64,000 nt of DNA from Amphiscolops sp. MND2022 (taxonomy: Eukaryota): positions 29,452,001-29,516,000 of the forward strand of contig OZ076409.1 of assembly GCA_964187785.1 (NCBI GenBank), in the 5' to 3' direction. This document shows positions 14,870 through 64,000 of this stretch, in pieces (position 1 is the first letter of the stretch; each line of letters begins with the position of its first letter). A program made the position numbers and the translations under genes. A model generated the notes under the pieces. It saw nothing but the letters and a program-made list of their open reading frames with translations. It searched no databases and was not told the DNA's origin.

Positions 14870-17800
14870 TCAATCAAATTTGGATTTTACATGGTTAAGG
14901 TGTGTCCTCACTAACGCAATTGATACATACACCCAATCATGGAGGACTATGTCGATATTGGAATCAATGAAATGATCTTTCAACATTGAAAACCAAGCTG
15001 GTAGCATGTTGATTGATCTTTCAGGGTCATAGATGGGAAGATGGATACGGGTGATTTGTCCTCGTGTGAGCTTCTGCACCAGGTCTATCAGGCACAGATG
15101 TTGCACATCATGTAAAATGGGGTGTTTACTAGAGGCTCTGGTGATTAGCAGGAACATTTCGTTATTCCACGGCGTTGCGGGTGATCTGGTGAGGTGAATA
15201 GCCTTTCCTACGGCTGGGCGTAGTCGGAAAATTTCTTCCTGGCCATATTCCCTGATGACGTAGCGCGCCATTGCTGAATGTGACAGAAGATCTGCCGGAC
15301 AGCATATTACTACGGTACCCCTGGCTTGCAAAATGTCAGTTTCTTCGTAATAAATCCATGATAGATAGTTCGGTTTGATCTTCGGATGCGTTGTCAATAG
15401 TTTTCCCGTGACTCTGCTTCGATTGTCTTGACTTGGTGTGAGATGATCCAGAATGGCCTTACGGTCTTGCCACACTGTTCTGCGTAAAAGTCTGTCTCCC
15501 AAGTTCGTGCAAGACCAATCGTGAACTACGGAGTGTGCTTCCAGCACGGTAACTGGGTTCTCGAATGTATACGTGTGTTTGTCTAACAGGCGTATTTTGG
15601 CTTGGCGACAAAAGGTGATAGCTAGTAGCTGTAACCAATGTTGACTAAGGAATTTCCCACGATAAATATCTGCTAGATGGAAGCATAAGGTGTCCTCAAA
15701 GTCTACAAGCGTACGCAAATTTTCCAAGCAAATCAGTAAAGTTCCTGGAGTCACTAGTGATGTTTCGTCCAAAGAGGTGACCAATAGCCACCAACCAGCC
15801 GTTGGGTGATACACATCTCCAGGAGGGGAGGTTACACCATAATGCTGCCATAGTCTTCGCGCGGTGATACAGCGGACCATTGCTATTCGGGTGTCACTTG
15901 GTTCTATTCTTCCAAACATCATCGATGGTGGGAGTGGGGGTATGATTGCGGTCAACGTGAATTCTAATCCACTCTTTTCGTGCCATGTCCATTCCTTAAA
16001 TCGGTAGGTTGGGCAGTCTGATGGAGATGTTTCTTGCATGGCTTTTAGTGTGGTTTCCAGGGGTGGGACCACGGCTGGTCCAATGCTCGAATAGGTCTTT
16101 TCCACGGTAATCACAACATGATGTACTTGTGAAACCTCTTGGTCTTTAGCTTGTATGTTTCGGATGTGTTGCATGTGGTCTTCCGTTGTTTCAGTAACAG
16201 CTGTGTCTGGGGCAGGAGCGTCTACTCCCCGGGCCAATCGCTTGTCCGGTGGTTTTCCACTAATTAGGTTGACGCAACTACAGTTACGGGAACCACATGT
16301 TCCGCAACGATATCTGGGAGTTCTATTGCGTCGCAGCAAATAGGGTGGTGCTCGTGAGGTTGTTGTTTGTTCCGCTTCTGGTTGCTCTGATGATAAACTT
16401 TCTGCAATGTTGGGTAGTGTCATTGCACGTTCCAAGGTTTGAGATTGTGCTCTGGTTCGCAATCTGCCTCTCGATCTGATGTACGGTCGGTGCGTGCTTG
16501 CTTGCAAGTGCTCTGCTTGATGAGTTGGCACTTCCCCTTCTACGATTTGGAGGTCTGCCTCTTGGCCTGCCTCTTCTACTCGCGGTTCTCCCCGATGATG
16601 GCGATGTTTCCATGCTGTGTCCGGGTTCTGGAATTTCTCTGTCAGTTCTTTCTTGGGGTTCGGGTTCCTCGATAGTTTGTAGTCCTGCCGAGCTACCAGC
16701 TCGAGAACTGAATAGAGGAAAATTGCTCAATGTGTCGGTTAAAGCTGGGTTCGAGAGCAATGGTGCTGATGTTCCTGATGGCGAGGGTATCAGACTTGGT
16801 GTTGGTTCTGGCCTGACTTCCTCTTGATCTGAATACAGTGGTTCCAAATCATCGATATCAGGGTAGATCATTGGTTGTTGTGGCTCTTCAATGGGTTGAC
16901 CCATTTGTTCTTGGTCGGATTCCGACTCAGAAGGGTATCCAAAATGACTGAATCGTCTTCGAGGGATTCCCCGTTCCAAAGCAGACTGAGTACGTGTTTG
17001 AATCGTGCTCGGGGGAACGGGCGCGGTCGGTTCCATCTCGAATGATGCCTCTGGCAGTTGTTCTGGACGAAATGAGTCACGTGATATGTCTGACGTTATT
17101 TCCTCGTTACTTTCCTCCACGTATGGGTCTGCGATGATGGCAACATTCTGGTCTAACCCAAAGGGTTGATATGCCGCCCAATCCCACGGCGCAGGCACAT
17201 GCTTCTTCAGGCGTTCGAAGTGAACCTTTTGTCCTGTATCCAAAACGTATAATCTTCCATCTTGTAACACATCTGTGACCTTGTGAGGTCCACGCCAGGC
17301 ACGAAGAAGTTTGCGGGTGCCACCTTTAGGAATTATGTGGCAGAAAACCCAAACAGCATCACCCACCGCGTGAGCTTTTGCTTTCAAATGCTTGTCGCAC
17401 TTCTGTTTTTGTCGTATTTGCGCCTGGTGTGTGTTTCGGCGAACAAGTTCGTGGATTTCTTGTTGTCGAGCAAGTAGGTGCTCCACAAATTCTTCTTTGG
17501 ACTCAAACTCTCGCGCTGCGAATTCTGGGTATATAAACGAGAGTGGAATGGATTTTCCTGCGCCATGTTGGAGCATATACGGGGAAAATCCGGTCGTTGC
17601 ATGTCTGGTTGAATTATAGGCACCCAAGACTCCGTCTATGTGTTCATCCCAGTCAAGCATTCTTCGAGATGTATAGACTCGGAGCAAGCTTAGTAATGTT
17701 CGGTTTTGACGTTCCACTAAACCATTGCCTCTCGGATGAGCTGGAGTAGACGTTATTTTGGTTACTTGCGAAGCTTTCATCAGTTCTTGAGCAATCTCAG

Positions 17801-27349: not shown

Positions 27350-27365
27350 TAAAAACTACTCTAGA

Positions 27366-45070: not shown

Positions 45071-45229
45071 TTTTGAAGTATTGTTTCTTGTGCTGAAAAG
45101 TTCTTCTCTTGCTCTTGTTTCGAGGATTGAACTATGAAAGATTCGAAGGCCTCGGAATACGAGCAAAAGTCTATGTGTCTGATGGGTATTTGTACCTAAA
45201 TCGGAAAAAAACGTCCAAAATATCAAAAA

Positions 45230-46777: not shown

Positions 46778-46898
46778 TTACGTCCGAGAGAAGGAATAAC
46801 GTATAAAATCCAAAAAACGCCCAAAATTTTCGAAAGTCATGAAAATACGACTGAGAAACGGGAAAAACACATGAAATTGGAAAAAACAAAGTATTTTA

Positions 46899-47144
46899 GA
46901 TCTAAAATTAAAAAGTGATATAAATAATAAAACGTGCCTCGGATATGTCTTCAATCCTTCTAATGCCCTGCGGCCCCTTGGGGCTGCTTATTTTCCCATC
47001 TTGCTAAGCGAGGTCGAACAGGAGCAAAGACCTAGCGGAAACGGAGATCGCGAAGCGATCGTAGTGGGAGCTGGTCTTTGCGACGGTTAGGGCGAGTGTA
47101 CATACACCGCATATGCCCCACATGTTTATATTTTCGCTTTCAGA
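46899..47144. repeat. Hairpin-forming dispersed repeat, copy 4
   Basis: GCAAAGACCTAGC...GATCGCGAAGCGATC...GCTGGTCTTTGC...ATATGCCCCACAT. Confidence 0.85.
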
Positions 47145-47494
47145 GAGCCTTTTTCGAAATTTTGGACGCTAGTCTCAAAAAATGATTTCTTTGAGACGTT
47201 ATTCCCGTTTTGTATTTAGATGTTTTCCTCAGACGTTCTTCCCGCTGCCACGTATTTTGATGATTTTTTGACATTTTAGACGTATGTGCCAATTTTAGAC
47301 GTTAGTTATTCCCGTTGTTTTAGATGTTATTCCCAATTTTGAAGTATTGTTTCTTGTGCTGAAAAGTTCTTCTCTTGCTCTTGTTTTGAGGATTGAACTA
47401 TGAAATAATCGAAGGCCACGTAATACGAGCAAAAGTCTATGTGTCTGATGGGTATTGGTACCTAAATCGAAAAAAACGTCCAAAATATCAAAAG

Positions 47495-48902
47495 AAGAAG
47501 AAGAAGATAATCAATTAACCTTCGGGATGTGGCAGTACAAATGACTTTCTATCATTGATTCCAGAACAAAGTAAATAGTATAAATAGAATTGACACAGAA
47601 GGAAGGCAGGTGAGGATTGCAGGGTTTTATGAGTTAATCGATGCTTGCAATGAAGCCAGCCAACGCGTTTATCACATGCTCGTTTTCGCAATTTAGCAAA
47701 CCAACTAGCGTTTCGTCAATGTTTTGATTTTGAAGCTCCTTAATGAAACTCCTTCGGTGTTCTTGATATGAGACACAGGAAAATAAGAAATGTGCACTAT
47801 CATCGACAACTCTACAATAGGGACAAATATCGGTTTTGCTCTTTTTACTTCTAAATAATACCTCGCGTACTTCAAAATCATTCTTTAGAACACGTAGCGT
47901 TTTGACAGAAACTTTCCTAGGATATGGTGCAAGCATTTTCATGATGCTGTTTCTTACTTTAAGCCCTGAGTAATTTGAGTACATAAGACCTTGCTTTATT
48001 TCTCGTTGCCATAAGTGCCTGCAATACTCATCCACCTCCTTCTTAAAAGTACTGACTGAGGGTTGTCTAGCATATTGTATGTATATTGCCTTAATTTCAT
48101 CGGGGTCACGATTTACAATTGAAAGTTTGTGTACCAGAAATAATCTCACCATTTTAATTTTTTGGGGTATGATTGCTAAATTACCTGGGTTTAGAACATC
48201 TGCACTTCTAGCAGTTGAATGTAGAAACATTAATATTTGATTAGTGTAGAGTAGAGAAGGAGGCCAAATATTACTTAAAACACTGACTACGTGTTTCGAT
48301 GCCTGGTAGTTTCTTATCCCAAAGATAGATTTATGAACACTCCACCACATCTTGTCCAGAGATGTCATATTTTGATGAAACCATATAGTCATACAGTACG
48401 TTACACGTGGTTTCACATATGAATCAAAGATACGTACAGCGTATAATGGATTTAATCCTTGCGTTATAAGTATACTAGTTTCTTTCCAGAAATTAACCAC
48501 TGAGGCAGAGATAATGGCAGCATGTGTTTTGAATCTCAAATCTCGCTCAAACCATAGGCCCAGTATTTCACTTCTCTCAACAAATTTATAGTCGGACTGA
48601 AATACTTCTTTTGAGAAATTTATATGTTCAGTTTTGTCTTTATTCAGCACCTGTCTCCATCTGTATGTACAGTTTTCCGCCTTTTCTAGAGTTGTGCACA
48701 AGTTTTCTTTGCTTGAAAGAGAAGTACTGTCATCTGCATACTTATATGTGAAGTCCGCATCTTGGAGGAAACCCTTCATATAAAATATAAACAAAAGTGG
48801 TGACAGTACAGCACCCTGAGGTAAACCATTAGGAGGGACAAATGACATGTCGATAAAATCATTGACTTGGATACTGATTTTCCGATTCGATAAGAAAGAT
48901 TT
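47495..48902 (-). mobile_element. LINE fragment, copy B (same family as copy A), interrupted by Gypsy element 2
   Basis: Collinear with copy A at an offset of ~2,266 bp; frame open from 48902 to stop at 47634. Confidence 0.9.
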
Positions 48903-49617
48903 TGTAACGATAAGCGCTGGCGCTTGAACCGCAACGTAGAGTGGAGGAACTAGAACAGCGAATATAATCCGGGACTTAGATCTCCGCGGCCCTAGCTCAT
49001 TCTCCCTCCGAAGGAGCCAGTCCCAAGGTGGGGGAACCGTCTTGTTGGAAACTCTCTGGCCTGGTCCTAGTCTGTAACTGCTAAAAGTAACGGGCATCTT
49101 GCATGTCTCAAGACCACTGCTCAATTAGCCTTTAAAAAGGGGGCTGAGAACAGGAGAATGTTGAGCCATAGTATTGGAGAATCTGATAAAATCGACATCA
49201 AAAAGGGTAACTACAGATGTTAAATGGGCAGCGCTCGAGCATATCAATCTACTACAACAAGGAAAGCACAATAAGCATAACAATATCAGAAGTTCGAGTT
49301 ATCTAACAGGAACGAATCGACCATGGCTTCCCAGCGCTAGCGCTCGTCACCGCACAGGACACCGCAGGATCTTCAGGCGAGCATCTGGAACACCGGTTTC
49401 TGTTACCTATGTAGTGTAAATGCCAAAGATGGGCACATCACCGTGTTCTAGGGACTGATTTCTACGTCTTCTCTTCTCGTCGTCTCTCGCGGGGGGCGAT
49501 TTCTGATTTCTGATATGCTTTTTTGACAGGTCTTTCGTCTGGAGCATGTTTGAGTGCCACGTCAGATTTGAACGAATTTTTGCTTCGAAAATTTTGACAT
49601 GGGCAGTTGCCGTTACA
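48903..49617 (-). repeat. 3' LTR of element 2 (715 bp, partner not in window)
   Basis: Perfect 7-bp inverted termini TGTAACG/CGTTACA; length close to the element 1 LTR; adjacent PPT. Confidence 0.85.
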
Positions 49618-50390: not shown

Positions 50391-53300
50391 CTACTGGGCA
50401 GAGCTGTGTCGAGCTCGATTCTTGGAGGCATCCTCCGAAACCCCGGTTTCCTCCGACGCTATTGACGCTCTTCGCTGTGGAGATGTCACGGTAATCACTG
50501 TCTCTGAATCAGAAACGTCTTCAGGGAGTGATAATTCAGCGGTCGACTGTACCAGTACGGCGTCGGGGGTTAGCTCAGCCGCATGCTCACCGGACTGTGG
50601 TTGCGACGACTGGGGACTGGTTTGTGTCGATGGTGGACTCACAGGCTCTGGCTGTAGAACATGGGTAGGCAAATCCAGAGTCATGGGCCGGTCGATGGGA
50701 TGACTCAATGACATGGCCATTGTGGGTGCCAGCATGGCAGGCGCGAACGCCTGTTGTCTCTCGAGTTCAGCTCTACTCTCCACGGCCAAGGATATTCGTT
50801 TGGAGACCCAGCCAGGCTGACTCCAGAGCTCGCAAGCTCGCTTCCATTTTGGGAAGCTGGCAATCTCCAGCTCCAAGCAATATCCTTCCTACTCTGCGCG
50901 GGCTTCGGGGCCTAGCACGGAATTGATCTCATCGTGCTGGACGATGGACATATCTCCTGACATCGTCATCTTGGCCTGCGGTCTCCAGGCAGCTCTTCTA
51001 GGGAACGGAGTCACGCGTCTTTGCAGGTTCCTCTGACGAGTCTGAGCTGCTCCTTCAATCCAATTCGGAATCTGAGCCAATTCCATATACTGGATTTGTC
51101 GATTGAAGGCTTCAGGGGCGCGACCAACGGGCTTTGCTCTGGGCCATCCCAGTGGCTCCTTCCAGTAGTGATTTGGGAAGGTGATGCACTTGAAGGCGTA
51201 CAGGGGATCTATTGGTGGACCAGCACTAGTGCTGGCACGGATCACTTTGCGTATAAACTCCTGCGACCAAGGGAATCTAAAGGGGACTCCATTCAGGCTG
51301 AGAGGCGCGGAGTACCAGTTGACTGGGCCGTATTCTCGTGGCAAAGGGCACGCCTTTCGTGTGCGAGCACGCAACAGACCCATCAAGTTCTCTTCCAGTT
51401 GTTTCTCCGACTTCAAGGTGGTATAACCATGCGGCATCTCGCCACTCAATACGGCCTGTACGATGCGCTGATAGGTCAGTGGGTGGCGTCCTTGGAGATA
51501 GGTGCAGAAGGAGACCATGTGCAGCTGCACTGCTCTCGCCAGTGGTTTGGTGGGATACCGGCACACACCGACCGCACCGAAGATTGGGGCCAGGACGGAA
51601 GCCATAACGGCCACGAAGTCCTCCACTTCGGCCAGAGTCAAATCGGCGATTTGCTGGGGCATAGGAAATCCCGCCGTTTCCGCAGGGAGTTGACGCTCGG
51701 AATTGTGGAGGGGTTGCGACTGATCCACGCCTACGAACAAGCCAGAGGCGAACACTAGGGTGGAATACAACCAATGTTGGAGGGACGCACGCATGCGTTC
51801 CAGCTGGGTGACATAATCTTGTTGGTCCTTGGAATTTAGGAGGTGACCCCATCGAGTTAGGCTGCGTAGCTGTCCCTGCGCGAGGATCAGGTAGCTGTAA
51901 AAGGTGACTAGATCACTGGATACTACCAGCTCGACTAACATAGCCAGGGGACCTGCCACAAACTTTGTCGGGCCCATGGTTAGCGCGAGCGCTAACATCT
52001 CTCCTACAGTAGTTTCGCCGATGGTTTCCAACAATTTGTCAGTCTGCACATTGGTGAGCAAGAACTCAGAGGCTATTACATCGATGTTCCAGCCTAGTCC
52101 GAGACTGGTGCAAAAGGCTTCCAAGGGACAGTTAAGCTCTTGAGCTACCTCGGCCAAGGTTCTGTCCACGAATCTGGACTGATACCATTCGGCATACGTT
52201 AATCCGGCGGCATCTACTTCAGTCTTCAAGTTGGTCGCCTCCACAGCCACGACGTGCCTCATGCCCACGGGCAACTTGACAGGCTCTATTCCCGCGGCAA
52301 ACCGAATTTGGGGAATGGTCCTTTCGACCGTGCGTGTGGCAGGCCATGTTTCAATTTCCTTCACGAGCTCTGCCAGCTCTGTTCGTACGGGAATCTCTTT
52401 GTCTTTCCGCACCAGCCAGTTATAACGTCGAACGGCCTCTCGCTCACTCATGTTAGATGCTCGCATGACGCGATTCCCGTCCAAGTCGAAGGCCATTCGC
52501 CCCATACACATTCCATGGTCGAACAGTATGGCATCGTCGATAGTCAGTTGTGCATTTCCCGATCGCTCCACAGTGATTAGCACTCTTGATACAGCAGCAA
52601 AGAAGGCAGGGTATGACAATGCATCGGGGCGTAGGTCTCCGCGATCAACCCGAAGATTTGGCGCACATATAGCAAACTCGATTCGGCGCGCCTTGCATAC
52701 CTCAGACAAGATGTACACAAACTGCTGCAAGCTTCGTTGCCAATACATGAATCCCGGCGGGGATGTGAAGAGCGCGAGCGCTCCCAGACGACCTCGAAGG
52801 ATCCCTGCTGCACGCTCCATTGCATCTGCAACCACGTTTACTAAGGGCGCCACATTCCCAGATCTACGGGTATCTGCCATGAGGGCATCCAGGTTGTGTA
52901 GCAGTCCTTCACAAGCCATGTGGTCGATCAAGTTGGTGAAGACTACACGTCGCGGGGGTGGCTCTCTTAGGGACCCTCTCATGTTTGGGTCGTACATAAC
53001 CGCGACCATCTCTGCGACTTCGGCGAAGCGGGAGAGTGGCATTGTTAACACCAGCACATCGGGCAGAAGGTTATCGATAGGCAGATCACTCTTGCATGTC
53101 GAATCTACCGCTACACAATAGCGCGCACGCTGCAGAGCTGCTTTCAAGAGGGGCTTCATTGACCTGATATTGCGAGCGTAGCGGGCGTTTGCTTCCCAGG
53201 TTTCTCCTTCGCGCAATATGTACCTGGCGGGAAATTGCTCGGTGAGGTCGTGCTGCAGGCGAGCCATGTAGTTGTTGGGTGTGGCGGGCAGTTGCTCTCG

Positions 53301-54662
53301 AGCACGCTGTTCCCAGGCTTGCTCACTTAGGTCCGCATCACTGGCACGTAGCGATCGAGTTATTTGAGCCGCAATGGTGATTCTGCTCACCTCTCTTTGC
53401 TCGGCGTCCGACGGCGGTGCTCTCCTTCTAATCGCACATGTGTTCGGGTGCAAACACTCTGCTGCCATCCAAATGCGTTTACTATCGCTAGTTACCACGG
53501 AGCCGGATACATCATCTGACGGGGGAAGAAAGGCGGGAGGACTGGTCTCTTCGACTGTCTCGGGCACCTCCAGGGACATGTTGGCAGAGCCTGTGCCCAA
53601 GGGCACAGGATTCGTTTCAGTATTCGCATCCACACTGCCGTAGCGGTTAATGGCCTCTTCCATGGACATTTGAGGCGCGCCTACGCCCAGGTGGCCGACG
53701 CGATATGGAGGCCTCACGACCACTACACTCTTCATTTGCGATTGCTGGGGTACATCTGCTCGCTTGTCCGGAGGGGGACGACTGGTCGGACTTTCGGTCA
53801 CGGAATTATTGCGTGTAGCGACGATATTTTCCTCAGTAAGTCGCTTCCGTCCAGTTTCCTCACGGGGATATGTTATAGCGCTGGTGCTTGGTCCAGCCGT
53901 GGTTTCTGCTTCCATAGACACAGCTTCGGCTAGGGTGGTGGGTGGGGTGACACAGCCCGAGGGCTGAGCTGCGGCTTGCAAATAGTGTGCCAATCCGGGA
54001 ATCCTTTGCTCAACTGCACGAACGAAGTCAGAGGAGTTGGGGTAGTTGGCGACCGCCTGCAGGGCCACAATCACCGCTTGCTCGCTGGCACTCCGTCCGG
54101 TAAGATTTAGATTAGGCACTGATGGCAGTTGGGACCCCGAGGGCTCCCGACTTGAGGCTGATTGATTGGTAGTGTTTTGCGTCATCGTTGCCTGGGTTCC
54201 ATATGGTGCCCCATAAGCAAGTGAGCTAGAATACGGCGTCATCTGCACTGGATTCGGTGCCGAGATAGAAGGCAGCGATGGGACGTTGACGGGCATCATA
54301 CGCAGTGATGCTTCTTGTTCGAATCTGGTGCCCTGGCTGGGGCCATGCACTGTGATTGATCTTTCGTCCAAGAACTGGTGAGTCAGGTCGTACCCATCCC
54401 AGGCATTGTTTGTGCACGTCAAGGTGCGACGATAGCCTGCCACCTCCGTAGTGATCGACAAGGATGCATTTGGCAGCATTTGCATCGATTCAAGCTGGGT
54501 CAGTAAGGCAGCCACCCCAGCTACGGCTACTGGCGAAAGACCATCCCGCAGCCTCTCTTCGACATATTGGGCCTGATTGACCCTCTGCGCTCGCGCAGAT
54601 TCCTGGGGCCTTGCACTACTAGACCCTGTTGCAGGCGCTGAACTGTTTGGGCAATGGGCCAT
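50391..54662 (-). CDS. ORF3 of element 2, ~1,420 codons with one in-frame TAG at 50889-50891; degenerate SGNH/GDSL-like domain
   Basis: 1257-aa ORF plus same-frame continuation 50391-50876; homologous over most of its length to element 1 ORF3. Confidence 0.88.
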
Positions 54663-54674
54663 TAATGCATAGGT

Positions 54675-54957: not shown

Positions 54958-56640
54958 CTACTCCAGCCCTATAGTTAATATTGATACATATACGCGGCTA
55001 TGCAAAACCACGCGAATACCAGTACCCTCGAACATGTTCGTTAGAGTATGGTACAGATTGACCAACGAGAAAGCCGGTCTCTCGGGGTCCAGAATGGGTA
55101 AGTGGACCCGTGTGGATCCTTTGTCTATCAGGCGCTGTATCAAGTACGTCATGCAGCGCAAGTAGTCATCGGTCAGCAGCGGTGCGCGCTGGTTAGCACG
55201 GACTATTAACAGGTGAATACTTTGATTAGGGTTGGGGTTCACATCAGGCGGGATAGTGAGAATCTCGCCCACTTTAGGTCGTAAGGCAAATACATCTTCT
55301 ATGCCGCACTCCCGCAGCACATATCGCAAGGCGGCAGAGTTGGTCTTTAGGTCAGCAGGGCATGCTAACACTATGTCGCCCTCGGCCTGCAAAAAATCAG
55401 ATTCATCGTAAGAAACATGTTCGGCGGAATTCGGATACAGGGCTCCCGGGTAAACAATCTCTCGTCCGGGACCATTGTCGTAGGGCAGACACACGCGAGG
55501 CGTACGCCCTTGGACTGCAGCCAGGTCTTGCCACACTGAGCGGGGCATCGCTCGATTGTCGCTGCCGGCCTTTACCCACGCATCTAAAGTTCCCAGGGCG
55601 GCTTTGGGGAACAAGGGGATCTCGAAAGTGTGAGTCCACTCATCTAACAGTCGAATTCTGGGATAGGTGGCGAAACACGTGATAAATAATTCCAGCCACC
55701 ATGCAAACTTCACCTTGCCTCGGTACCAGTCTATGATGTGGAAGCAAAGTATTAAGTCCACAGTGGTGAGGGTCCTCAGACTCTCTAGACAGGATAACAG
55801 ATTCAACGGTTCCACCATCGCCTCCACTCGTGGAGCTGTTACCAGCAGCCACCAGTGAGGAGCCGGGCTGTATACCCCTCCTGGTTCCACCTGGACTCCA
55901 TACTTATCGCATAACAAGTCGGCAGTGATGCATCGGGCCATCTGCACCGGTTCCCTTTCAAAATTGAATGGTCCAAACGCAATATTGCTGGGCACAGGGG
56001 GCAACACCGTGGGCAGGGTAAACTCCAGGCCCTTTCCATCGCTAGTCCACTCCTTAAACCTAGGACAAGGGGCCTTCGCTACCCCGGGCAGTGACAACTT
56101 CTCCAGGATAGTGTCTACAGGGTGGTCTCCGGACCGCTCTACAGCTGAGTAGGTTTTCTCGGCCCGCACCGTGAGGCGGTACACCAAGTTTTCTCTCTCT
56201 TCCGGAGGAACTCCCCGGACTCCAATGGGAACCCTCCGGTTCTCATTCACAGCTAATAGGCAGACACAATCTCGCAGCCCGCAGGTTCCACACTTGTAGC
56301 GCGGCTGCCGTTTACTCCTTAGTTGATACATAAGAGCAGTTGCAGATGCCTCTGTTAGCGTCTCTGCAGTTCTGGGAGCTTCCGTTTCGGCCTGGATTGC
56401 AGTTTCGGTTTCGACATTTCTCGGTGTTTCTTTCTTCCTCGTCCTTGCTTTCGCTCGGATCAGCCGTTTCTTCTGTGCCTTGGGTGGTCTCCCCCTCCCC
56501 CTTTTGAAAGAAGGAGCGGTCCCCGCTCCTGGCGAAGTCTCGGGAACTTCAGGCAGATCGGGCTGAACGTTGCTGTCGCTGCTGGCAGATTTGAGAGGAA
56601 TCGGAGGGGCGGTCGGCCATATGGGATAGTTACTAAGGAA
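54958..56640 (-). CDS. Pol C-terminal extension of element 2: AT-hook, CxxC-x4-CxC, two TARG1-like macro domains
   Basis: The frame of ORF 54958-56331 is open upstream through KRGRGRPPK to a small deletion near 56640 (LLTNP..FLSNYPIW vs LLSNPALTDTLSNFPLF in element 1); C-terminal 150 aa follow the OARD1/TARG1 pattern. Confidence 0.8.
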   Translation of the reverse strand, partial: FLSNYPIWPTAPPIPLKSASSDSNVQPDLPEVPETSPGAGTAPSFKRGRGRPPKAQKKRLIRAKARTRKKETPRNVETETAIQAETEAPRTAETLTEASATALMYQLRSKRQPRYKCGTCGLRDCVCLLAVNENRRVPIGVRGVPPEERENLVYRLTVRAEKTYSAVERSGDHPVDTILEKLSLPGVAKAPCPRFKEWTSDGKGLEFTLPTVLPPVPSNIAFGPFNFEREPVQMARCITADLLCDKYGVQVEPGGVYSPAPHWWLLVTAPRVEAMVEPLNLLSCLESLRTLTTVDLILCFHIIDWYRGKVKFAWWLELFITCFATYPRIRLLDEWTHTFEIPLFPKAALGTLDAWVKAGSDNRAMPRSVWQDLAAVQGRTPRVCLPYDNGPGREIVYPGALYPNSAEHVSYDESDFLQAEGDIVLACPADLKTNSAALRYVLRECGIEDVFALRPKVGEILTIPPDVNPNPNQSIHLLIVRANQRAPLLTDDYLRCMTYLIQRLIDKGSTRVHLPILDPERPAFSLVNLYHTLTNMFEGTGIRVVLHSRVYVSILTIGLE

Positions 56641-57905
56641 ATTGGGTTCGTCAACAAGGATGCTGAGGTTCCTGGTAACGATGTTTCTTTTTCGGAGGAG
56701 GATATCTGTGGAGACGGTGAGCGCACGCGCTCATGGTCAGAGAACAGTTGAGGTAGTACACGGGCGGGGGATATCGACTGATCCAACGCAGCCGGAGGAG
56801 CCGCAGGCTCCACTAGATCCTCGTCAACTGGATTAGGAGGTATCGGCAACATGGCATCGGATAGTTCGTCATCTGTACCCGAAGTGGAATAGTCAAATTG
56901 CTGATAATGCGGGCGGGAGCCGCCTGCGCGAAGTTCCGTGCGTAGTCGAGTGTCCATCCAGTGACGTCGACGTGAGGGCAAAGATGCATCGGACGCTTCT
57001 GAAAGTAGTTGTTCAGGTTTATACGACGATAAAGACTTATCGTCATCAACTACGTCGACGGAACGTTCAGGTTCGGGGTCCATAAGTACCACCACCTCAC
57101 CACTGTCCGTGTGTGCAGTAGCAAGTTCAAGTGGGCCACTGTGGTGCGGTTTAAGACGCTCAAAATGAACCTTTTGACCTGTGTCTAGTACATAGACACG
57201 ACCGTCCTGAAAGACTTGTACAACCTTGTGCGGGCCTCGCCAAGCACGCATCAATTTCGGGGAACCCTTTTGCGGTACGTAGCGGCAAAAAACCCAGACG
57301 AGCTCGCCTACTTGGTAAGCTCGCGCTTGTATAGCACGGTCGTACTTTAACTTTTGACGCAATTGGGCTTGGTGCGTGTTACGCCGTACCAAGTCATGTA
57401 TTTCCTGCTGGCGAGCCAATACATGATCGACATACGCCTCATGCGACTCGAATGATTTGGCTGCAAATTCGGGATACAAAAATGTGAGAGGGATGGCCTT
57501 CTCTACACCACGGGTCAGCATGTAGGGTGAGAAGCCAGTGGTGGCGTGCCTCGTAGAGTTGTAGGCGCCCATGACCTCATCAAGACATTGGTCCCAGTCG
57601 CGCATACGGCGGGAGCAAAAAACTCGCAGTAGGGTTAATAATGTCCGGTTTTGACGCTCCACCAAGCCTTGGGTTCTCGGATGGCTAGCCGTAGAGGTTA
57701 CTTTGGTAACGTGGGCTGCTTTTAGGAATTCGTTGGATACCTCAGCAGTCAAATTTGGAGCATTGTCAGACTGCATTCGAGTGGGTGTGCCATGACGGGC
57801 GAACCACTTTTGCAGCAGCAACCGAGAGGTGGTCACAGCGTCGTAGTCGTGATGACTACAGGGAACTGCTTCCGCGAACTTGGAGAAATGGTCAATTATG
57901 ACCAA
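56460..57905 (-). CDS. pol: Integrase core and C-terminal region of element 2 (frameshifted from upstream pol near 57915)
   Basis: VIIDHFSKF, MQSDNA, HPRTQGLVERQN, WRGPHKV...VHFERLK. Confidence 0.93.
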   Translation of the reverse strand: MVIIDHFSKFAEAVPCSHHDYDAVTTSRLLLQKWFARHGTPTRMQSDNAPNLTAEVSNEFLKAAHVTKVTSTASHPRTQGLVERQNRTLLTLLRVFCSRRMRDWDQCLDEVMGAYNSTRHATTGFSPYMLTRGVEKAIPLTFLYPEFAAKSFESHEAYVDHVLARQQEIHDLVRRNTHQAQLRQKLKYDRAIQARAYQVGELVWVFCRYVPQKGSPKLMRAWRGPHKVVQVFQDGRVYVLDTGQKVHFERLKPHHSGPLELATAHTDSGEVVVLMDPEPERSVDVVDDDKSLSSYKPEQLLSEASDASLPSRRRHWMDTRLRTELRAGGSRPHYQQFDYSTSGTDDELSDAMLPIPPNPVDEDLVEPAAPPAALDQSISPARVLPQLFSDHERVRSPSPQISSSEKETSLPGTSASLLTNPISLVTIPYGRPPLRFLSNLPAATATFSPICLKFPRLRQERGPLLLSKGGGGDHPRHRRNG

Positions 57906-60900
57906 GATGCCAGTGTTATTACTGAAGGGCAGATCTTCAGGTGATCATATTGGACCAATTCGTTGAAGTACCCGCTCTGGATGTTCTTTAGGTGGAATCG
58001 GACGTCACCAGGCTTATCTCGAACCTGTTGACAGGTGAGGCATTGGCCAACGTAACGGCCCACGCTGCGTCGAATACCAGGCCATGTGTGACGTTCTTGA
58101 ATCCGAGCCACCACTTTGGAGATACCTTGATGTCCCATGGCGTCATGCGCGCGGAATAAAATCTCATGCTGGTACAGTTGAGGCATGACGATCATGCACG
58201 GGCGTTCGTGCAGGGGACGTTGATTGGGAGGGTATTGTACGCAAAGCACACCATTCTTGTTAATGAACAGGAGAGTTTTCTTCTGACGGTAGTAGTTGCG
58301 TGCGAACTCACGCACGTTCTCAGGAAACACGTCATGATCGATGGGTTCGTTTAGCACCAACTTTTTGAGTGCTAGCACATGAACATCACGGTTTTGGGCT
58401 AGGATCAAGTCTTTGATACCATGCACGGTGTGAGCATGTTCGTGAAGTTCAGTGTTGATGTCTTTAAGAGCCATAATTGAGTCGCGTACACCCGAGGGAG
58501 TACCTTGCAACGCAACAGGATTCGCCCCAGCAATAGCATAGACGGTACGTGAAGATACATTTACGGCATGCGTCGGTAATAGATAATCTTCGCGTGCTTC
58601 ATCAGTGACATCAATCCAGTCCTCAGGGTAGTCTGGATAGGCATCCTCGTGCGGTTGCAGAGCAAGGGAAGGCGGAGGCGGCAAGGGTGCTGCGAATGCT
58701 TTCGCTTGTCTGTCTCTCCTGCTCGCTCGTTTTGTGCGGCGAAGCACGCGTAGCAATTGGTTGGGAGCCTTAGGCTCCAAGTTCTGCAGGTGCGCAGGTA
58801 GTTCGGGATGATTCGGGATGACTCGACCCTGAAGGTCGAACCATGGGGCAACAGGCAGTTTATCAAATTCGTCAGCTGAAAGGAAATTCCAGCGTTCGCT
58901 CGCAGCTGGCTGCTGTGCAAGCTGTTTCTCTCGGCATCGGTACTCGTTGGTTCGTTTGCTCAAGCCATCGGCGTTTCGATGTTGAGTTCTTGGGCGGTGT
59001 TCCACGCGAAAGTGATACTTCTCCAGGGTCATAATCCATCGGCCGATTAGCGCTTGATCCGTGGAGTAGGTTTTCAACCAGGACAAGGCTTGGTTGTCCA
59101 CCCGCAGGGTGAATTTCCGGGGACATAAATAGCTGTGGTTTTTCACTATGAAATAGTAGGCGGCGAACATTTCAAGTTTGGGAGCTCCGTATTTAGCTTG
59201 TGTGGTAGTGAGCTTCTTGCTGCCGTAAACTATCGGCCTCAGGCGTCGTTCACCCGGAGGACCTTGCCACTGGTGCAGGATACCAGAAATGGCGACAGCA
59301 CTAGCGTCAGTGTCCAACACAAACTCTCCTTCGGAATCAGGCTGCGCGAGCGCAGTTGCCTCGATCAGGGCTTTTTTGATTTCATTGAATGCGGTTTGTT
59401 GCTCAGGACCACATGCGAAGGTGGCATTCAGTCCAGTGACGGCGTGCAGGGGTGCAACCAGCTTAGCGTGCCAAGGGATGAATTCGCGATAGTAATTGGC
59501 GAATCCAAGGAAGCTCTGCATCTCCGTCTTGTTACGGGGAATTTCCCAATCGCGCAACTTGACGACGGCTTTCGGGTCGGGCTTCACTCCTTCTGCGGAA
59601 ACCACTCGTCCCAAGTACTTGATCTCCGATTTCATGAAATCGCATTTGGCCACGCGCATTTTGAAACCGGCTTTACGGAGGCATTCAAAGACCTCACGTA
59701 GGCGTACCATATGGTCTTCCACAGTCTCTGTGGCAATCACGATATCATCAATGTAGGCCATGACCATGCTGCCCTCACGATTGACAATATTCCTTAGCGC
59801 ACGCGCTATTGATCGCTGAAACGTGGCAGATGCATTGCACATACCAAATGGCATTCGCCGCCACTCAAAAGGTCCTAGTTCACAAGCAAAAGCGGTTTTG
59901 TGGCGATCCGCCTTTCGCACAGGAATTTGCCAAAAGTCCCAAGCAAGGTCTATGCTGGTATAAATCTTCGCCTTGCCTAGCCGTGCCAGGCTTTCATCAA
60001 TACGGGGCAAGGGATAGGCATCCTTAATGGTTACCTCATTTAACGGGCGGAAGTCGCAGCAAAAGCGCAACTCCCCGTTTTTCTTTTTCACCATTACAAT
60101 GCCGCTCGCCCAAGGGGACAGCGAGGGCTGTATCATTCCCAGAGCTAAGAGGTTCCGCACCTCCTGATTGGCACGTTCGGCCTTCTCAGGGGACATCCGG
60201 CGAGCACCTTCGCGATGTGGTACAGCCCCTGGTTCCACCTCTACGGTGTGGTTAGCGATAGTGCACCGACCGATGTCAGCCTTGTGTTTCATGAATAGCT
60301 CATCGAATTCATCGAGGAGGTTACTGAGAGACTCGCAGGCGCTAGCGCCCCATAAATCCTTAACCGCCTGTAACTGAGATTCTGGCCCAGGAATCGGAGC
60401 CATTAGCTCTGGGTCCGTACGCTTGCGAATTTCGCGCTCCGATAGTCCTGCCTCGCTAGGGTCAGTTGAGGACAAAAACTCAAATTCTGAAGAAGAGGTT
60501 AACTCAGAAGCAGTGGACAGATTCACTTCACTATAAATTTTATGAACAAAATTTGCACGACTGTCGTCGGCGTCAGTTTTTGTGCGGGTTGTTGTGGGAG
60601 AGTCCAGACACTGAGGTACTGCTTGGTATACTACCGTTATGGGTACTACGGTGCCCAGTTGTACACCACACCGCATGCGTTGAGGGTTGCTGGTGAGATT
60701 TATCAGGCTCACAAAGAGTGTCCCTGTCTCACTGACAGTGGCCACGCTGTCCTCTAAAAAGACGACATTATGCAACGTAGTGTCAGACAAAGAGGCATTG
60801 AGCGCTACGCTTTGAAACATCAGCGGCTCTAGTGCATTGGTGACGAGCTTTGCTCTAGCCACCGCACGTTCGAAAGGTTGCAGAACCAAGTCACTATCCA

Positions 60901-62017
60901 AAACGACTGGGGTAGCTATCGAAGTGTCACCTACCTGTGCGTGAGCATGATGCCACACAGGCTTCACTGGTGCTCGCACCACAATCTTCATAGATGTTAG
61001 ATCCACTAACACCTGGTAGGAGCGGAGAAAGTTCCGACCAAGTAGGAAGTCTTCCACACCCATTGCGTCATCTACCACCACAAAGTTCGTTTCAAGTTCA
61101 TATCCTCCCAGCTGGAAATGGATATGTTCTGCGAGGCCGTAGGTCTTTATTGTCTTCCCGTTGGCTGCGTACAGGTCAACTTGGTAGGGTTTAAGGACCG
61201 TTCCAGTTCGAGCTGCCACTCTGTTAAAGGCGGAAAACGTCAGTATGGAGACGCCCGAGCCAGTGTCCACCAGTCCTCGCAGCGGGATAGGTGTTGCATG
61301 AGGCACCACGAAAGAGACCACGAGCGACGCACGCTCATCTATACGCGCTTCACCGGTGGGCTCCTGATGATTGATGTTATAGCATTTGAGCTCCTGAGGA
61401 CCCAGACAAATGCCAGGGGGAAATACATCCACCACCACACAGGCTTCGAACTTCACATCCACTCCATCCATTGAAGCACAGACTGGCACTGGGGAATATG
61501 TTGTCAGAGTCGTAGACTCTCCCGGAGCGTACCATTCTTTCGGTCGAGGCAACTCGTTTCGTTTGTAGAGGATAGACAGTTCGACCCATAGCTTCGCCAG
61601 GGTTACCGTCGGCCTACGCGTTTGCTCAGCTGCCAGCAACAGGTGAATCGAAATCAGCGTCCGTCCTTGCGGGTCGAACGTCGTGGGTTCCAAGCAGGTC
61701 TGAACTTGCTTAGCACCACAAGTGAATGTCATCGGAGTGTGGAACGCAGGCGGTTCCGCCGGATGTAGCATCAACACACGGTCATCTTCCAAAGGTACGG
61801 TGTGCGCGGCGATGCCAGCTGATTCGACCTCAGCCCATCGATTGTAGGCTAACTCGTCACTGGGCTTCGGCGCATGGGAGTGCTCACCACATTGCACTTC
61901 CGCCTGATCGAAAAGTCCACAGCTCGTGCATTGATAGATCCCCGGATGACCTTCAAGGATGCCATCGGTCGCGTCTTCCGTGGTGACCTTTACGCCCTCT
62001 GGTTCGGAGGCAGTCAT
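57896..62017 (-). CDS. pol: pol of element 2: pseudo-protease, protease, RT, RNase H, integrase N-terminal zinc domain
   Basis: 1373-aa ORF with LVDTGSGVSIL, DFLLGRNFL, YIDD, LDTDAS, NADGLSK, HDAMGH...CLTC. Confidence 0.96.
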   Translation of the reverse strand: MTASEPEGVKVTTEDATDGILEGHPGIYQCTSCGLFDQAEVQCGEHSHAPKPSDELAYNRWAEVESAGIAAHTVPLEDDRVLMLHPAEPPAFHTPMTFTCGAKQVQTCLEPTTFDPQGRTLISIHLLLAAEQTRRPTVTLAKLWVELSILYKRNELPRPKEWYAPGESTTLTTYSPVPVCASMDGVDVKFEACVVVDVFPPGICLGPQELKCYNINHQEPTGEARIDERASLVVSFVVPHATPIPLRGLVDTGSGVSILTFSAFNRVAARTGTVLKPYQVDLYAANGKTIKTYGLAEHIHFQLGGYELETNFVVVDDAMGVEDFLLGRNFLRSYQVLVDLTSMKIVVRAPVKPVWHHAHAQVGDTSIATPVVLDSDLVLQPFERAVARAKLVTNALEPLMFQSVALNASLSDTTLHNVVFLEDSVATVSETGTLFVSLINLTSNPQRMRCGVQLGTVVPITVVYQAVPQCLDSPTTTRTKTDADDSRANFVHKIYSEVNLSTASELTSSSEFEFLSSTDPSEAGLSEREIRKRTDPELMAPIPGPESQLQAVKDLWGASACESLSNLLDEFDELFMKHKADIGRCTIANHTVEVEPGAVPHREGARRMSPEKAERANQEVRNLLALGMIQPSLSPWASGIVMVKKKNGELRFCCDFRPLNEVTIKDAYPLPRIDESLARLGKAKIYTSIDLAWDFWQIPVRKADRHKTAFACELGPFEWRRMPFGMCNASATFQRSIARALRNIVNREGSMVMAYIDDIVIATETVEDHMVRLREVFECLRKAGFKMRVAKCDFMKSEIKYLGRVVSAEGVKPDPKAVVKLRDWEIPRNKTEMQSFLGFANYYREFIPWHAKLVAPLHAVTGLNATFACGPEQQTAFNEIKKALIEATALAQPDSEGEFVLDTDASAVAISGILHQWQGPPGERRLRPIVYGSKKLTTTQAKYGAPKLEMFAAYYFIVKNHSYLCPRKFTLRVDNQALSWLKTYSTDQALIGRWIMTLEKYHFRVEHRPRTQHRNADGLSKRTNEYRCREKQLAQQPAASERWNFLSADEFDKLPVAPWFDLQGRVIPNHPELPAHLQNLEPKAPNQLLRVLRRTKRASRRDRQAKAFAAPLPPPPSLALQPHEDAYPDYPEDWIDVTDEAREDYLLPTHAVNVSSRTVYAIAGANPVALQGTPSGVRDSIMALKDINTELHEHAHTVHGIKDLILAQNRDVHVLALKKLVLNEPIDHDVFPENVREFARNYYRQKKTLLFINKNGVLCVQYPPNQRPLHERPCMIVMPQLYQHEILFRAHDAMGHQGISKVVARIQERHTWPGIRRSVGRYVGQCLTCQQVRDKPGDVRFHLKNIQSGYFNELVQYDHLKICPSVITLASWS

Positions 62018-62033
62018 TGGTTTTCGGGCTTGG

Positions 62034-63908
62034 TCACGATTGGGGCACTCGCGAGCAAAATGTCCGTTTTGCCCACAGTGAAAACAAGCACCTACCGGCG
62101 CTCGGGCGGGAGCTAGGACAGCGAGAGCTGGGACATTTGGGGGGGGGCGCCGGAGGTGGCAAGACGCCCTGCGGCATGACCATCTTGTTCGGCGGCAGTG
62201 GTGCGAAAGGATGAGGTCTAGACCTCATGGCTAATCTGGGATCATAGGGTTGTTGAGGTTGGGTGGGTCTGGGACGATTTCGTTGCAGCTGACGCGTGGT
62301 AAATCGCAAGGACTCTACGGTAGGGGGTTCGGTAAGAAAAGTCTCCGAGGCGTATACTATGGCAAGTTCACGCCTCAACACTGGATCTCGCACACCTTCC
62401 ATGAAGCGCTGCAAGATTTCATAGCGTTTGGTAATGATACTTTCTTGCGGGAATCCTTGGCTCCTGAGACCCTCTAAAGCGTCTAAGTACTGCATCCAGT
62501 CCTCTTTTTCTTGTTGGACACGGCTTTGGAAGGTCTGCCGCACCTGCATACGATTTCCTCCCGCGCCAAATCGGCTAGATAGCAACTCGAACACCTTCTC
62601 GGGGGTGTCACGTTCAGACTCAGCCTTGTTGATGATGTAGTTGCGAGCCTCACCCTCGAGATGACCAATAATGCTCCAGGCCCGATCTTCGGCCGAGACT
62701 TTGGTTTGGACTCTTTTCAAGTATCGCTGCATCACTAAGATCCAGCCATCAATAGACCCGTCCTTAGAGCCTCGATACACGCTGGGTTTGGTTTGAGCCA
62801 GGTCACGTCCCGCAAGCAACGGTGCTAGTTCTTTGGACATCGCTTTGGAAATGGCGGCAGTGAACCTCAGTTGCTCGGGAGAGATGACCTCAGCCTCTCC
62901 TTCCTTGGGTGCCACTTCATCAGTACCGTCGTCACTGCCATGCGTGGCTCGTACTGAGAGGTTCGCTATGTCTTCTTTCTTGCGAGTGCTACTCGCACAA
63001 GGAGCGCCCGAGGGCATTCCGTCCTCGGCTGTCCAGTCGGCGGTCAGATACAGGGAGTCCGTTCCAGAAGCCATGGTAGGGGCCGTCGCATACGCAGCTC
63101 CATCAGTCTGGGACCCTAGTGTGGCCTTGGTACAGGATAAATCAACTTCGGTAGAAGTATCTAGATAGATAGGTGACATTGGGTCCACACCTTGGTCTCG
63201 GGTGGCACTTCGAACTACGGAGGAGGTTATTTGACTCATCGACGAGGAGTCGTGGGGCCCTCTCACCTGCACCCGTGCAGGTTTACGCTCCACATCAGCC
63301 ATGATGAGTACGGAATCCTTGGTTCGGGTTTCAGGCGTCGTCGACTTGGAGGTGCTAGGCTTCAATGCACTCGCCAGCTCGGGTTTCGTTGCCCGACCCA
63401 GGTGCGATGATTCCGGAATCTTAATTGAATCCGCGACTGGCACACCTTCAGTGGCACCAGATTGTCGTGGGAGGGACCTCTCGCGCCTCATGATGTTGAT
63501 AGCATTGAGCACAGTGTGCATTTGGTTACTCAAATCATTGATCTGGGTTTCCACACGAAGTTCACGGGCCATCAAAAGGTCATTCATCTCACCCATTCTG
63601 TGGCCTAGTGCATCTACGCGAGCACTCTGCGTATTCTGCGCGGTTCGCAGTTGATCACTGACCTGCAATCCTTCTCGCATCGTTGTCTGCAACGTTCTCA
63701 TATTTTCTGCGATGGCACGATGTTGGTCATTGCACCCAGCACGAGTTCTAGCCAGTTCAGCTAAGGCACGTTGGGTCTCAGCTTGGGCTTCCAATATTGC
63801 GGCTTTATACACCGAAGATCGTTGGGATGATGCCACTGAACCTGCCACGCTCCTCGTACGAGGCACCTCAAACTGACGTTCACCTACATTTATCATGGGT
63901 GGTCGCAC
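62034..63908 (-). CDS. gag: gag of element 2 (N-terminus may extend beyond the window; 1-nt shift in a C homopolymer near 62140)
   Basis: KPSVYRGSKDGSIDGWILVM...LEGEARNY...MQYLDALEGLRSQGFP; the knuckle CFHCGQNGHFAREC is read in the +1 frame after the C run and continues into the pol ORF. Confidence 0.88.
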   Translation of the reverse strand: MRPPMINVGERQFEVPRTRSVAGSVASSQRSSVYKAAILEAQAETQRALAELARTRAGCNDQHRAIAENMRTLQTTMREGLQVSDQLRTAQNTQSARVDALGHRMGEMNDLLMARELRVETQINDLSNQMHTVLNAINIMRRERSLPRQSGATEGVPVADSIKIPESSHLGRATKPELASALKPSTSKSTTPETRTKDSVLIMADVERKPARVQVRGPHDSSSMSQITSSVVRSATRDQGVDPMSPIYLDTSTEVDLSCTKATLGSQTDGAAYATAPTMASGTDSLYLTADWTAEDGMPSGAPCASSTRKKEDIANLSVRATHGSDDGTDEVAPKEGEAEVISPEQLRFTAAISKAMSKELAPLLAGRDLAQTKPSVYRGSKDGSIDGWILVMQRYLKRVQTKVSAEDRAWSIIGHLEGEARNYIINKAESERDTPEKVFELLSSRFGAGGNRMQVRQTFQSRVQQEKEDWMQYLDALEGLRSQGFPQESIITKRYEILQRFMEGVRDPVLRRELAIVYASETFLTEPPTVESLRFTTRQLQRNRPRPTQPQQPYDPRLAMRSRPHPFAPLPPNKMVMPQGVLPPPAPPPKCPSSRCPSSRPSAGRCLFSLWAKRTFCSRVPQS

Positions 63909-64000
63909 TCTCTTGTGTTTGCCATAGGCACAAACTCTAGTGTTACCTCGAGCGACTCCAGACCCCTGCGGTCTCGCACAACTCGTGTTCCCTGTGTAGG

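What the first reader, a model, noticed from the sequence alone, without database searches (positions are those of the whole stretch)
54958..55950. Tandem TARG1/OARD1-like macro domains at the end of Pol (element 2)
Seen: HVSYDESDFLQA-GDIVLACPADLK...VGEILTI...IHLLIVRAN...YLRCMTYLIQRLIDKGSTRVHLPIL...NLYHTLTNMFEGTGIRVVLH (about 55420-54990) lines up block by block with TARG1 as I recall it (ITYVKGDLF, LAHCISED, GEVAVL, IYYLITKK, LQKSLEAM..GVTDLSMPRI, VSAMIEEVFEATDIKITV). A more eroded copy precedes it (MARCITAD..WWLLVT..LLSCLESL..CFHIID..WWLELFITCF..RIRLL, about 55945-55645). Known: TARG1/DarG-class macro domains bind and remove ADP-ribose from proteins and DNA, and viral macro domains oppose PARP defence. 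The catalytic Lys of the ITK motif is Arg here (IVR) and the GCGLD loop is replaced by LDPERP. Inference: a reader or pseudo-enzyme at the position where chromoviruses carry a chromodomain, possibly tethering integration to chromatin or countering ADP-ribosylation-based defence.
Basis: partly seen in the sequence, partly recalled or inferred. Interest (0 to 1): 0.88.

Follow-up and report, generated by a model that had tools for sequence, protein, structure and literature searches.

The report
Disarmed twin macrodomains on retrotransposon integrase
A very active family of jumping genes carries, on the tail of its integrase, two copies of a host-type ADP-ribose-removing domain whose binding pocket looks blocked but which selection still keeps, and the same family leaves unusually short 3-base scars when it inserts.

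Summary
Both domains fold like TARG1/OARD1: domain B Z 13.4, Foldseek E 6e-7; domain A Z 12.3, E 2e-5. They are homologous to each other. They end the single Gag-Pol ORF of a young, abundant 18.9-kb Ty3/Gypsy family; this copy is frameshifted.

The mechanism needs revising. B has K84R, D125P, G121D, G43A and G123E; G123E is the mutation shown to abolish ADP-ribose binding by TARG1. A has lost loop 1 entirely. So neither eraser nor ADP-ribose reader is likely. A is shortened, not decaying: dN/dS is mostly 0.02-0.12 for both domains. Both domains have also lost the basic charge of intact macros.

Best reading: a duplicated pseudo-macro protein-interaction module on an integrase tail that also carries an AT-hook and a Cys4 motif. 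No insertion-site preference was detected.

Two findings beyond the brief:
(1) Other Gypsy lineages in this genome carry single, intact TARG1-type macros at three positions in Pol.
(2) Every resolved insertion of the tandem-macro clade has a 3-bp target duplication with TG..CA ends, against 5 bp in the single-macro elements.

New variant of a known kind.

The parts
54994..55428 (-). Pseudo-macro domain B (TARG1 fold), last domain of Gag-Pol. K84-equivalent Arg at about 55200; G121-equivalent Asp, G123-equivalent Glu (about 55083) and D125-equivalent Pro in loop 2; G43/I44-equivalents Ala/Ala
55639..55998 (-). Pseudo-macro domain A (TARG1 fold without loop 1 and its helix). K84-equivalent Ala; loop 2 has the same D-x-x-R motif as B
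55429..55638 (-). Conserved inter-domain linker with a helix packed after domain A; dN/dS 0.05-0.13 in most unsaturated pairs
56002..56184 (-). Conserved beta-strand/helix extension N-terminal to domain A, folded confidently with it; no separate fold match tested
56260..56292 (-). Cys4 motif (CxxCxxxxCxC), probable zinc site; present in 7 of 7 long ORFs examined
56479..56505 (-). AT-hook-like motif (RGRP core; motif name recalled); 1-3 copies in 7 of 7 long ORFs examined
56463..57944 (-). Integrase core, GPY/F module and low-complexity spacer
54958..63998 (-). gag-pol of element 2 (capsid/PNMA-like, CCHC knuckle, PR, RT, RNase H, IN, tail), in four frame pieces in this copy with breaks near 62100, 57920 and 56640; its start lies beyond the window
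50889..54674 (-). Downstream ORF3 (1261 aa here), no Pfam or PDB match, absent from the 14.8-kb subfamilies
48903..49617 (-). 3' LTR of element 2 (715 bp, TG..CA, purine-rich tract upstream). The 5' LTR lies about 3 kb beyond the window; LTRs 99.4% identical; 3-bp target duplication
14927..15931 (-). Same tandem A+B in element 1 of the window (39% identity); LTRs 9143-9855 and 27362-28075, 3-bp target duplication

Best explanation
An ancestral Gypsy element carried a TARG1-type ADP-ribose hydrolase domain, as several other Gypsy lineages in this genome still do. In this clade the domain lost its catalytic pair and its phosphate-binding glycines, was duplicated, and was kept as a ligand-free two-domain module at the end of the integrase tail (GPY/F, spacer, AT-hook, Cys4, extension, A, B). 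It most likely works by protein-protein contact, docking the integration complex on a host chromatin or nuclear protein or organising integrase multimers, while the AT-hook grips DNA. Shown: fold, in-frame fusion, pocket substitutions, shared origin of A and B, purifying selection, retention without ORF3. Inferred: loss of ADP-ribose binding (by analogy with TARG1 mutants), that the tail stays on mature integrase, and that the partner is a protein.
For: Fold. Fusion: 21 of 116 scored near-identical copies lie in an open frame of 3000 aa or more (19 with no stop in the match), and PR-RT-RH-IN plus A+B sit in one ORF in L096, L097, L098, L101. Pocket of B: K84R 53/58, G121D 48/53, G123E 41/53, D125P 38/50, G43A 48/54 (register). 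TARG1 G43E, I44E and G123E lose ADP-ribose binding and activity (PMC5928194, passages). A and B form one side of the tree against 13 single macros, support 100/100, and share D-x-x-R in loop 2. dN/dS between subfamilies: A 0.02-0.12, B 0.03-0.12, against 0.2-0.7 for the adjacent low-complexity spacer and 0.03-0.04 for RT in three pairs. pI of A and B is 5.3-6.8 in most rows, against 8.6-10.3 in 10 of the 13 single Gypsy macros, which argues for a protein rather than a nucleic-acid ligand. Three elements of 14.8-15 kb have no long ORF3 but keep A+B.
Against: No partner was identified. No target preference was seen. SCO6735, an ALC1-class hydrolase, is active without either catalytic residue (PMC7050489, passages), so residue loss alone is not proof. 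The closest element-1 pairs give higher dN/dS (0.2-0.3), and many distant pairs are saturated. Some rows keep a basic pI (three A rows about 8.0-8.2; P0288 B 9.3), and P0288 keeps Gly at the G123 position. Long branches may inflate the A+B clade. Whether the element's protease cuts the tail off integrase is unknown.
Confidence: 0.5

Rival explanations
1. Nucleic-acid-binding tandem, like coronavirus SUD: pocket-dead macros that bind structured RNA or DNA (genomic RNA packaging, cDNA or target DNA).
For: SUD-N/M are tandem macros that lack the glycine loop, do not bind ADP-ribose and bind G-quadruplexes (PMC2674928, passages). TARG1-G123E still binds RNA (PMC5928194). An AT-hook and a Cys4 motif are next door.
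Against: Both precedents use basic surfaces, whereas window A and B have net charge -3 and -4 (pI 5.3 and 5.7) while most single Gypsy macros are +4 to +12.
Confidence: 0.2
2. ADP-ribose/PAR reader or atypical hydrolase that steers integration to PARylated chromatin or reverses defensive ADP-ribosylation.
For: TARG1 ancestry. Arg conserved at the K84 position in 53 of 58. An ALC1-class hydrolase without the catalytic pair exists. ADP-ribosylation takes part in L1 silencing through SIRT6-KAP1 (PMC4695847, passages).
Against: G123E, G121D and G43A/I44A in B; loop 1 deleted in A; the equivalent TARG1 mutants are binding-dead; basic surface lost.
Confidence: 0.12
3. Counter-defence by mimicry: the pseudo-macros occupy the protein partners of host macro-domain or PARP proteins, or a silencing factor, and act apart from integration.
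For: Macro domains recur in Gypsy Pol at PR-RT, RH-IN and post-IN positions, so the ancestral role did not depend on the integrase tail. No target bias.
Against: Low dN/dS with no sign of fast change in the domains. Fixed position behind AT-hook and Cys4 in 7 of 7 long ORFs.
Confidence: 0.13
4. Neutral relic of a once-active domain.
For: Catalytic residues are gone; this copy of the element is frameshifted.
Against: dN/dS mostly 0.02-0.12; confident fold; kept in families only 30-40% identical and in ORF3-less subfamilies.
Confidence: 0.03

Closest known systems
Human TARG1/OARD1/C6orf130 (ALC1-like macrodomain class; DarG, Poa1p, BT1257 next)
   Same: Same minimal macro fold; best structural match for both domains; ungapped 79-residue profile alignment over the C-terminal half.
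   Different: K84, D125, G121, G123, G43 and I44 are not kept; A lacks loop 1; tandem, fused to Pol, mostly acidic.
Single TARG1-type macros in other Gypsy lineages of G000 (L052, L089, L099 after IN; L091 between RH and IN; L093 between PR and RT; L092 after PR)
   Same: Same domain class in a Gypsy Pol, often at the same terminal position; L050 matches TARG1 at E 1.2e-27; the domain-B profile detects them.
   Different: Single copy, catalytic Lys and glycine loops mostly intact, basic; distant RT lineages; 5-bp target duplications.
Macro-domain ORFs of fish epsilon-like endogenous retroviruses (Basta et al. 2009, known here only from a passage in PMC4977317)
   Same: An LTR retroelement carrying a macro domain.
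   Different: Retroviridae, described there as additional ORFs; macro class and activity not seen by me.
Coronavirus SARS-unique domain (SUD-N + SUD-M)
   Same: Tandem, duplicated macros that lost the glycine loop, in a viral polyprotein. Analogy only.
   Different: Different macro class and virus; SUD uses lysine patches to bind G-quadruplexes; SUD ranks below TARG1 in the fold searches (Z 7.3-7.7 for A).
Chromoviruses (Gypsy with a C-terminal chromodomain)
   Same: Accessory domain after GPY/F at the end of integrase.
   Different: Macro fold, not chromo; no targeting detected.
Troyka LTR retrotransposons (PMC12440569, parts 1-3 of 5 read)
   Same: 3-bp target-site duplication; single Gag-Pol.
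   Different: Troyka has CG..CG ends, no GPY/F, a CX2CX8-10HX4C knuckle, LTRs of 100-400 bp and an internal part under 7.7 kb. This family has TG..CA, GPY/F, CX2CX4HX4C, 715-bp LTRs and 18.9 kb.

Membership tests
TARG1/ALC1-like macrodomain (fold class) | Minimal macro alpha/beta/alpha fold, best match to TARG1/DarG/Poa1p | tested here: met
   B: Z 13.4, E 6.2e-7. A: Z 12.3, E 2.1e-5. Predicted models.
TARG1/ALC1-like macrodomain (fold class) | Detectable sequence homology to TARG1 | tested here: met
   B profile E 0.0045, top hit. A only through B (probability 92%). Single sequences give nothing.
Active TARG1/DarG hydrolase | Catalytic Lys84 | tested here: not met
   Arg in 53 of 58 B rows (Lys in 1); Ala/Ser in 61 of 66 A rows
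Active TARG1 hydrolase | Acidic residue 125 (Asp in the PDB chain; the review read calls it Glu125) | tested here: not met
   Pro in 38 of 50 B rows; Gly in 58 of 64 A rows
ADP-ribose-binding macrodomain | Glycine-rich diphosphate loops (G43/I44; G121-x-G123) | tested here: not met
   B: Ala/Ala and D-P-E. A: loop 1 absent, D-W-Y
ADP-ribose-binding macrodomain | Measured ADP-ribose/PAR binding or hydrolysis | not testable with these tools
   Needs recombinant protein
Ty3/Gypsy (Metaviridae) | Gag-PR-RT-RH-IN order, CX2CX4HX4C knuckle, GPY/F module | tested here: met
Ty3/Gypsy (Metaviridae) | LTRs with TG..CA ends | tested here: met
Ty3/Gypsy (Metaviridae) | 4-6-bp target-site duplication (typical trait, per PMC12440569) | tested here: not met
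   3 bp in 11 of 11 element-2-family insertions, in element 1 and in 5 of 7 further elements, 2 unresolved
Ty3/Gypsy (Metaviridae) | RT placement among named reference clades | not tested
Troyka | 3-bp target-site duplication | tested here: met
Troyka | CG..CG termini, no GPY/F, CX2CX8-10HX4C knuckle, short LTRs | tested here: not met
   against PMC12440569
Chromovirus | Chromodomain at the integrase C-terminus | tested here: not met
   The C-terminal domains have the macro fold; no Chromo Pfam hit
Chromovirus | Targeted insertion into a chromatin type | tested here: inconclusive
   No megabase-scale clustering and no shared flank; no chromatin data

The most novel reading that the evidence does not exclude
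This clade is an undescribed Gypsy lineage whose integrase makes a 3-bp staggered cut with ordinary TG..CA ends. Its AT-hook / Cys4 / twin pseudo-macro tail is a new kind of integrase accessory module, either a chromatin-protein tether or part of the target-capture complex that sets the short stagger. It arose from an ADP-ribose eraser that LTR retrotransposons captured repeatedly to fight host ADP-ribosylation.
Probability: 0.2. Interest if true: 0.85.

Novelty: new variant of a known kind. Interest (0 to 1): 0.62.

Why it matters
Accessory domains on integrase tails decide where retroelements land; chromodomains are the textbook case. A selected, duplicated, pocket-dead TARG1 fold would be a new solution, and it has a ready control set: intact, partly dead and fully dead macros sit in different Gypsy lineages of one genome, so the path from enzyme to pseudo-enzyme can be tested directly. 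The intact copies point to ADP-ribosylation as a pressure on LTR retrotransposons, which my paper searches did not find described for Gypsy. The 3-bp duplication with TG..CA ends is an exception to the published rule that only Troyka does this. It bears on integrase geometry and on annotation tools that expect 4-6 bp.

Tried and rejected
Pfam and phmmer-vs-PDB on single sequences: no macro hit. ESM Atlas gave only sub-threshold leads to Macro/ThsA-Macro clusters (0.89 for B, 0.79 for A), not used as evidence. (A2 vs A3) was uninformative because both alignments held full-length rows; it was redone on cut columns. The two-domain model had a low-confidence linker (pTM 0.46), so the A-B orientation is unknown. 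Troyka membership: rejected. Decay of domain A: rejected by dN/dS. Insertion preference: none at contig scale (nine large contigs with known length; 68 and 83 places taken, small contigs and C3, C5, C6, C8 left out, near-duplicate places merged) or in 31 flanks (GC 0.37). This is weak, since chromatin state is not visible. Sequencing runs: none was listed. Complex of integrase with the tail: no verdict, the job was not folded. The search for macro-bearing polyproteins in other organisms returned only 2 proteins among 123 candidates, so the taxonomic range is open. P0172 and P0288 have best scored matches of only 34-35% in G000 and may come from other genomes. ORF3: no Pfam or PDB match. Earlier scan findings: none. 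Paper searches for macro domains in Gypsy elements and for 3-bp duplications found no description of this clade; Repbase, CDD and subscription journals were not searchable, and Basta 2009 was not held. The careful RT tree did not finish; the quick tree was used.

Full report
Setting. The finding lies at the 3' end of gag-pol of a minus-strand Ty3/Gypsy element. Pfam finds a CCHC knuckle, protease, RT, RNase H and integrase in the upstream frames. The 3' LTR is at 48903-49617 and the 5' LTR lies about 3 kb beyond the window; they are 99.4% identical and the element spans 18.9 kb. In this copy gag-pol is in four frame pieces, with breaks near 62100, 57920 and 56640. The 350-aa query has 116 scored matches at 97-100% identity among 4328 candidates in the 1.07-Gb genome. 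Of these 116, 21 lie in open frames of 3000 aa or more. Element 1 of the window belongs to a sister family with the same tail (39% identity; 113 scored matches). In four such copies RT and both domains are in one ORF. So the domains are a true in-frame part of Pol.

The fold. Single sequences hit nothing in Pfam or PDB. With family alignments, TARG1 was the only PDB hit of a 32-row profile (E 0.48) and the top hit of a 58-row profile (E 0.0045). The AlphaFold2 model of both domains (mean pLDDT 66, linker unreliable) matched TARG1 over residues 195-339 (Z 13.4, rmsd 2.8 A), then DarG, BT1257 and Poa1p; Foldseek E was 6.2e-7. Domain A folded with its upstream extension gave pLDDT 88 and again matched TARG1 first (Z 12.3; E 2.1e-5). 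A and B are homologous (probability 92%; 30 shuffled controls at most 1.8%). In a 24-row tree (7 near-duplicate rows dropped) they form one side against 13 single macros with support 100/100, though long branches could contribute.

The pocket. TARG1 numbering was taken from the PDB chain printed with an offset of six, which reproduces the published G43, I44, K84 and G123. In B the family has Arg for K84 (53 of 58 rows), Asp for G121 (48/53), Glu for G123 (41/53), Arg for L124 (48/51), Pro for D125 (38/50) and Ala for G43 (48/54). These states are fixed in 29-30 of 30 close copies and 15 of 15 element-1-family copies for the K84 and loop-2 positions. In A, loop 1 and its helix are deleted, K84 is Ala or Ser, and loop 2 reads D-x-Y-R-G. 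TARG1 G43E, I44E and G123E do not bind ADP-ribose and are inactive, while G123E still binds RNA through basic surface patches (PMC5928194, passages). Against a simple reading, SCO6735 hydrolyses without the catalytic pair (PMC7050489, passages), and one distant relative, P0288, keeps Gly123. Window A and B have pI 5.3 and 5.7, whereas 10 of the 13 single Gypsy macros have pI 8.6-10.3. I infer that neither domain erases or reads ADP-ribose and that RNA or PAR binding by a basic face is also less likely.

Selection. Pairwise Nei-Gojobori estimates against other subfamilies give dN/dS 0.02-0.12 for A and 0.03-0.12 for B where dS is not saturated. The linker and the Cys4/extension segment are mostly 0.04-0.17, the low-complexity spacer 0.2-0.7, and RT 0.03-0.04 in three pairs. 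The closest element-1 pairs are higher (0.2-0.3; RT 0.16), as expected when post-insertion mutations dominate, and many distant pairs are saturated. A is thus reduced in structure but not decaying. An RGRP motif and a Cys4 motif precede A in 7 of 7 long ORFs, and three 14.8-15-kb elements with no long ORF3 keep the whole tail.

Origin. A Pfam Macro search of the genome found three weak hits in long ORFs. One is a TARG1-like domain after integrase with K84, D125 and both glycine loops intact (E 1.2e-27 to TARG1). It retrieves 150 of 150 scored candidates; 23 of the 30 fetched loci keep the T-K motif. Single macros occur after IN (L052, L089, L099), between RNase H and IN (L091), between protease and RT (L093), and in a Gag-PR-macro element without RT (L092). 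The L087/L094 lineage has independently changed G123 to Glu and lost the Lys. On a quick RT tree the tandem clade is far from the post-IN single-macro clade and nearest to L091, on a long, unsure branch. The domain therefore moves among Gypsy lineages and positions and has been disarmed more than once. From memory, not from a call: CDD annotates Macro_Poa1p-like domains in some animal Gypsy polyproteins, so single macros in Gypsy are probably not new.

Integration signature. In 11 of 11 element-2-family insertions with both flanks, the longest duplication is exactly 3 bp. Element 1 shows the same, as do 5 of 7 further tandem-clade elements; 2 were unresolved. Five of six single-macro elements have 5-bp duplications and one was unresolved. 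PMC12440569 (parts 1-3 of 5 read) states that Troyka makes 3-bp duplications with CG..CG ends while other LTR elements make 4-6 bp. This clade has TG..CA ends, GPY/F and a standard knuckle, so it is not Troyka. The link between the tail and the 3-bp stagger is a single-clade coincidence so far; the integrase core also differs, for example by a two-residue insertion. No target preference was detected: 68 and 83 copies fit uniform spread (KS p 0.61 and 0.26), and 31 flanks average GC 0.37 with no shared sequence.

Mechanism and odds. Most likely (0.5) the tandem is a ligand-free protein-interaction module on the integrase tail, working with the AT-hook in docking or assembling the integration complex. 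Rivals: SUD-like nucleic-acid binding (0.2; PMC2674928, passages), mimicry-based counter-defence (0.13), ADP-ribose reader or atypical eraser (0.12), relic (0.03). The partner, the processing of the tail and its ligand are all untested.

Literature seen: PMC5928194, PMC7050489, PMC2674928, PMC4977317, PMC4695847, PMC6431247 and bioRxiv 2021.11.30.470311 as passages; PMC12440569 parts 1-3 of 5; PMC11673190 part 1 of 3; PMC10886601 term search without relevant hits; Basta 2009 not seen. No supplements were read; the Troyka data files could bear on the 3-bp claim. Searches found no account of macro domains in Gypsy Pol or of TG..CA elements with 3-bp duplications. Repbase and subscription journals were outside reach.

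Verdict. Real, well supported, and a new variant of a known theme (retroelements capturing macro domains; integrase tails with accessory domains). Interest 0.62.

Noticed in passing
window 48900-48902 and LTR flanks in L135-L164, L165-L182: 3-bp target-site duplications with TG..CA LTR ends throughout the tandem-macro clade, against 5 bp in single-macro Gypsy elements.
   Followed up: yes
L052:8586-9056, L089, L099, L091/L102, L092, L093: Single TARG1-type macros, mostly with catalytic Lys and glycine loops intact, at three positions in Pol of other Gypsy lineages; at least 150 matches in G000.
   Followed up: partly
L087, L094 (macro near the end of Pol): Independent G123-to-Glu change and loss of the catalytic Lys in a single-macro lineage: convergent disarming.
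   Followed up: partly
window 50889-54674 (and 10375-14395 in element 1): Large ORF3 after pol (1261-1501 aa), 28-81% identical across families over its core, no Pfam or PDB match, no clear membrane anchor pattern, absent from 14.8-kb subfamilies. Its middle looks by eye like an SGNH-type alpha/beta domain (recalled, untested).
   Followed up: partly
L092:4993-7494 (L103, L104): Element with 1.95-kb LTRs encoding only Gag-protease-macro (834 aa) and no RT; many copies with the same ORF length, so a non-autonomous family that keeps an intact macro.
   Followed up: partly
L053:1718-4066 (+) and L052:9912 to L053:1057 (-): The L052 family has a 783-aa envelope-like ORF (basic cleavage-like site, hydrophobic peptide, C-terminal hydrophobic stretch; judged by eye) and an antisense 382-aa ORF with a His-x-Glu motif that recalls JmjC/cupin folds; neither has a Pfam match.
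   Followed up: partly
window about 58250-58950: About 270 aa without Pfam match between RNase H and the integrase zinc finger, where the L091 family carries a macro; my macro profiles did not match it.
   Followed up: partly
window 45040-48903: Element 2 sits in a duplicated 1.6-kb stretch (97% identical) that encodes LINE-like RT fragments.
   Followed up: no
P0300: A 1716-aa protein from a Logan record has an intact TARG1-like macro near its N-terminus and no RT or Pfam match; context unknown.
   Followed up: no
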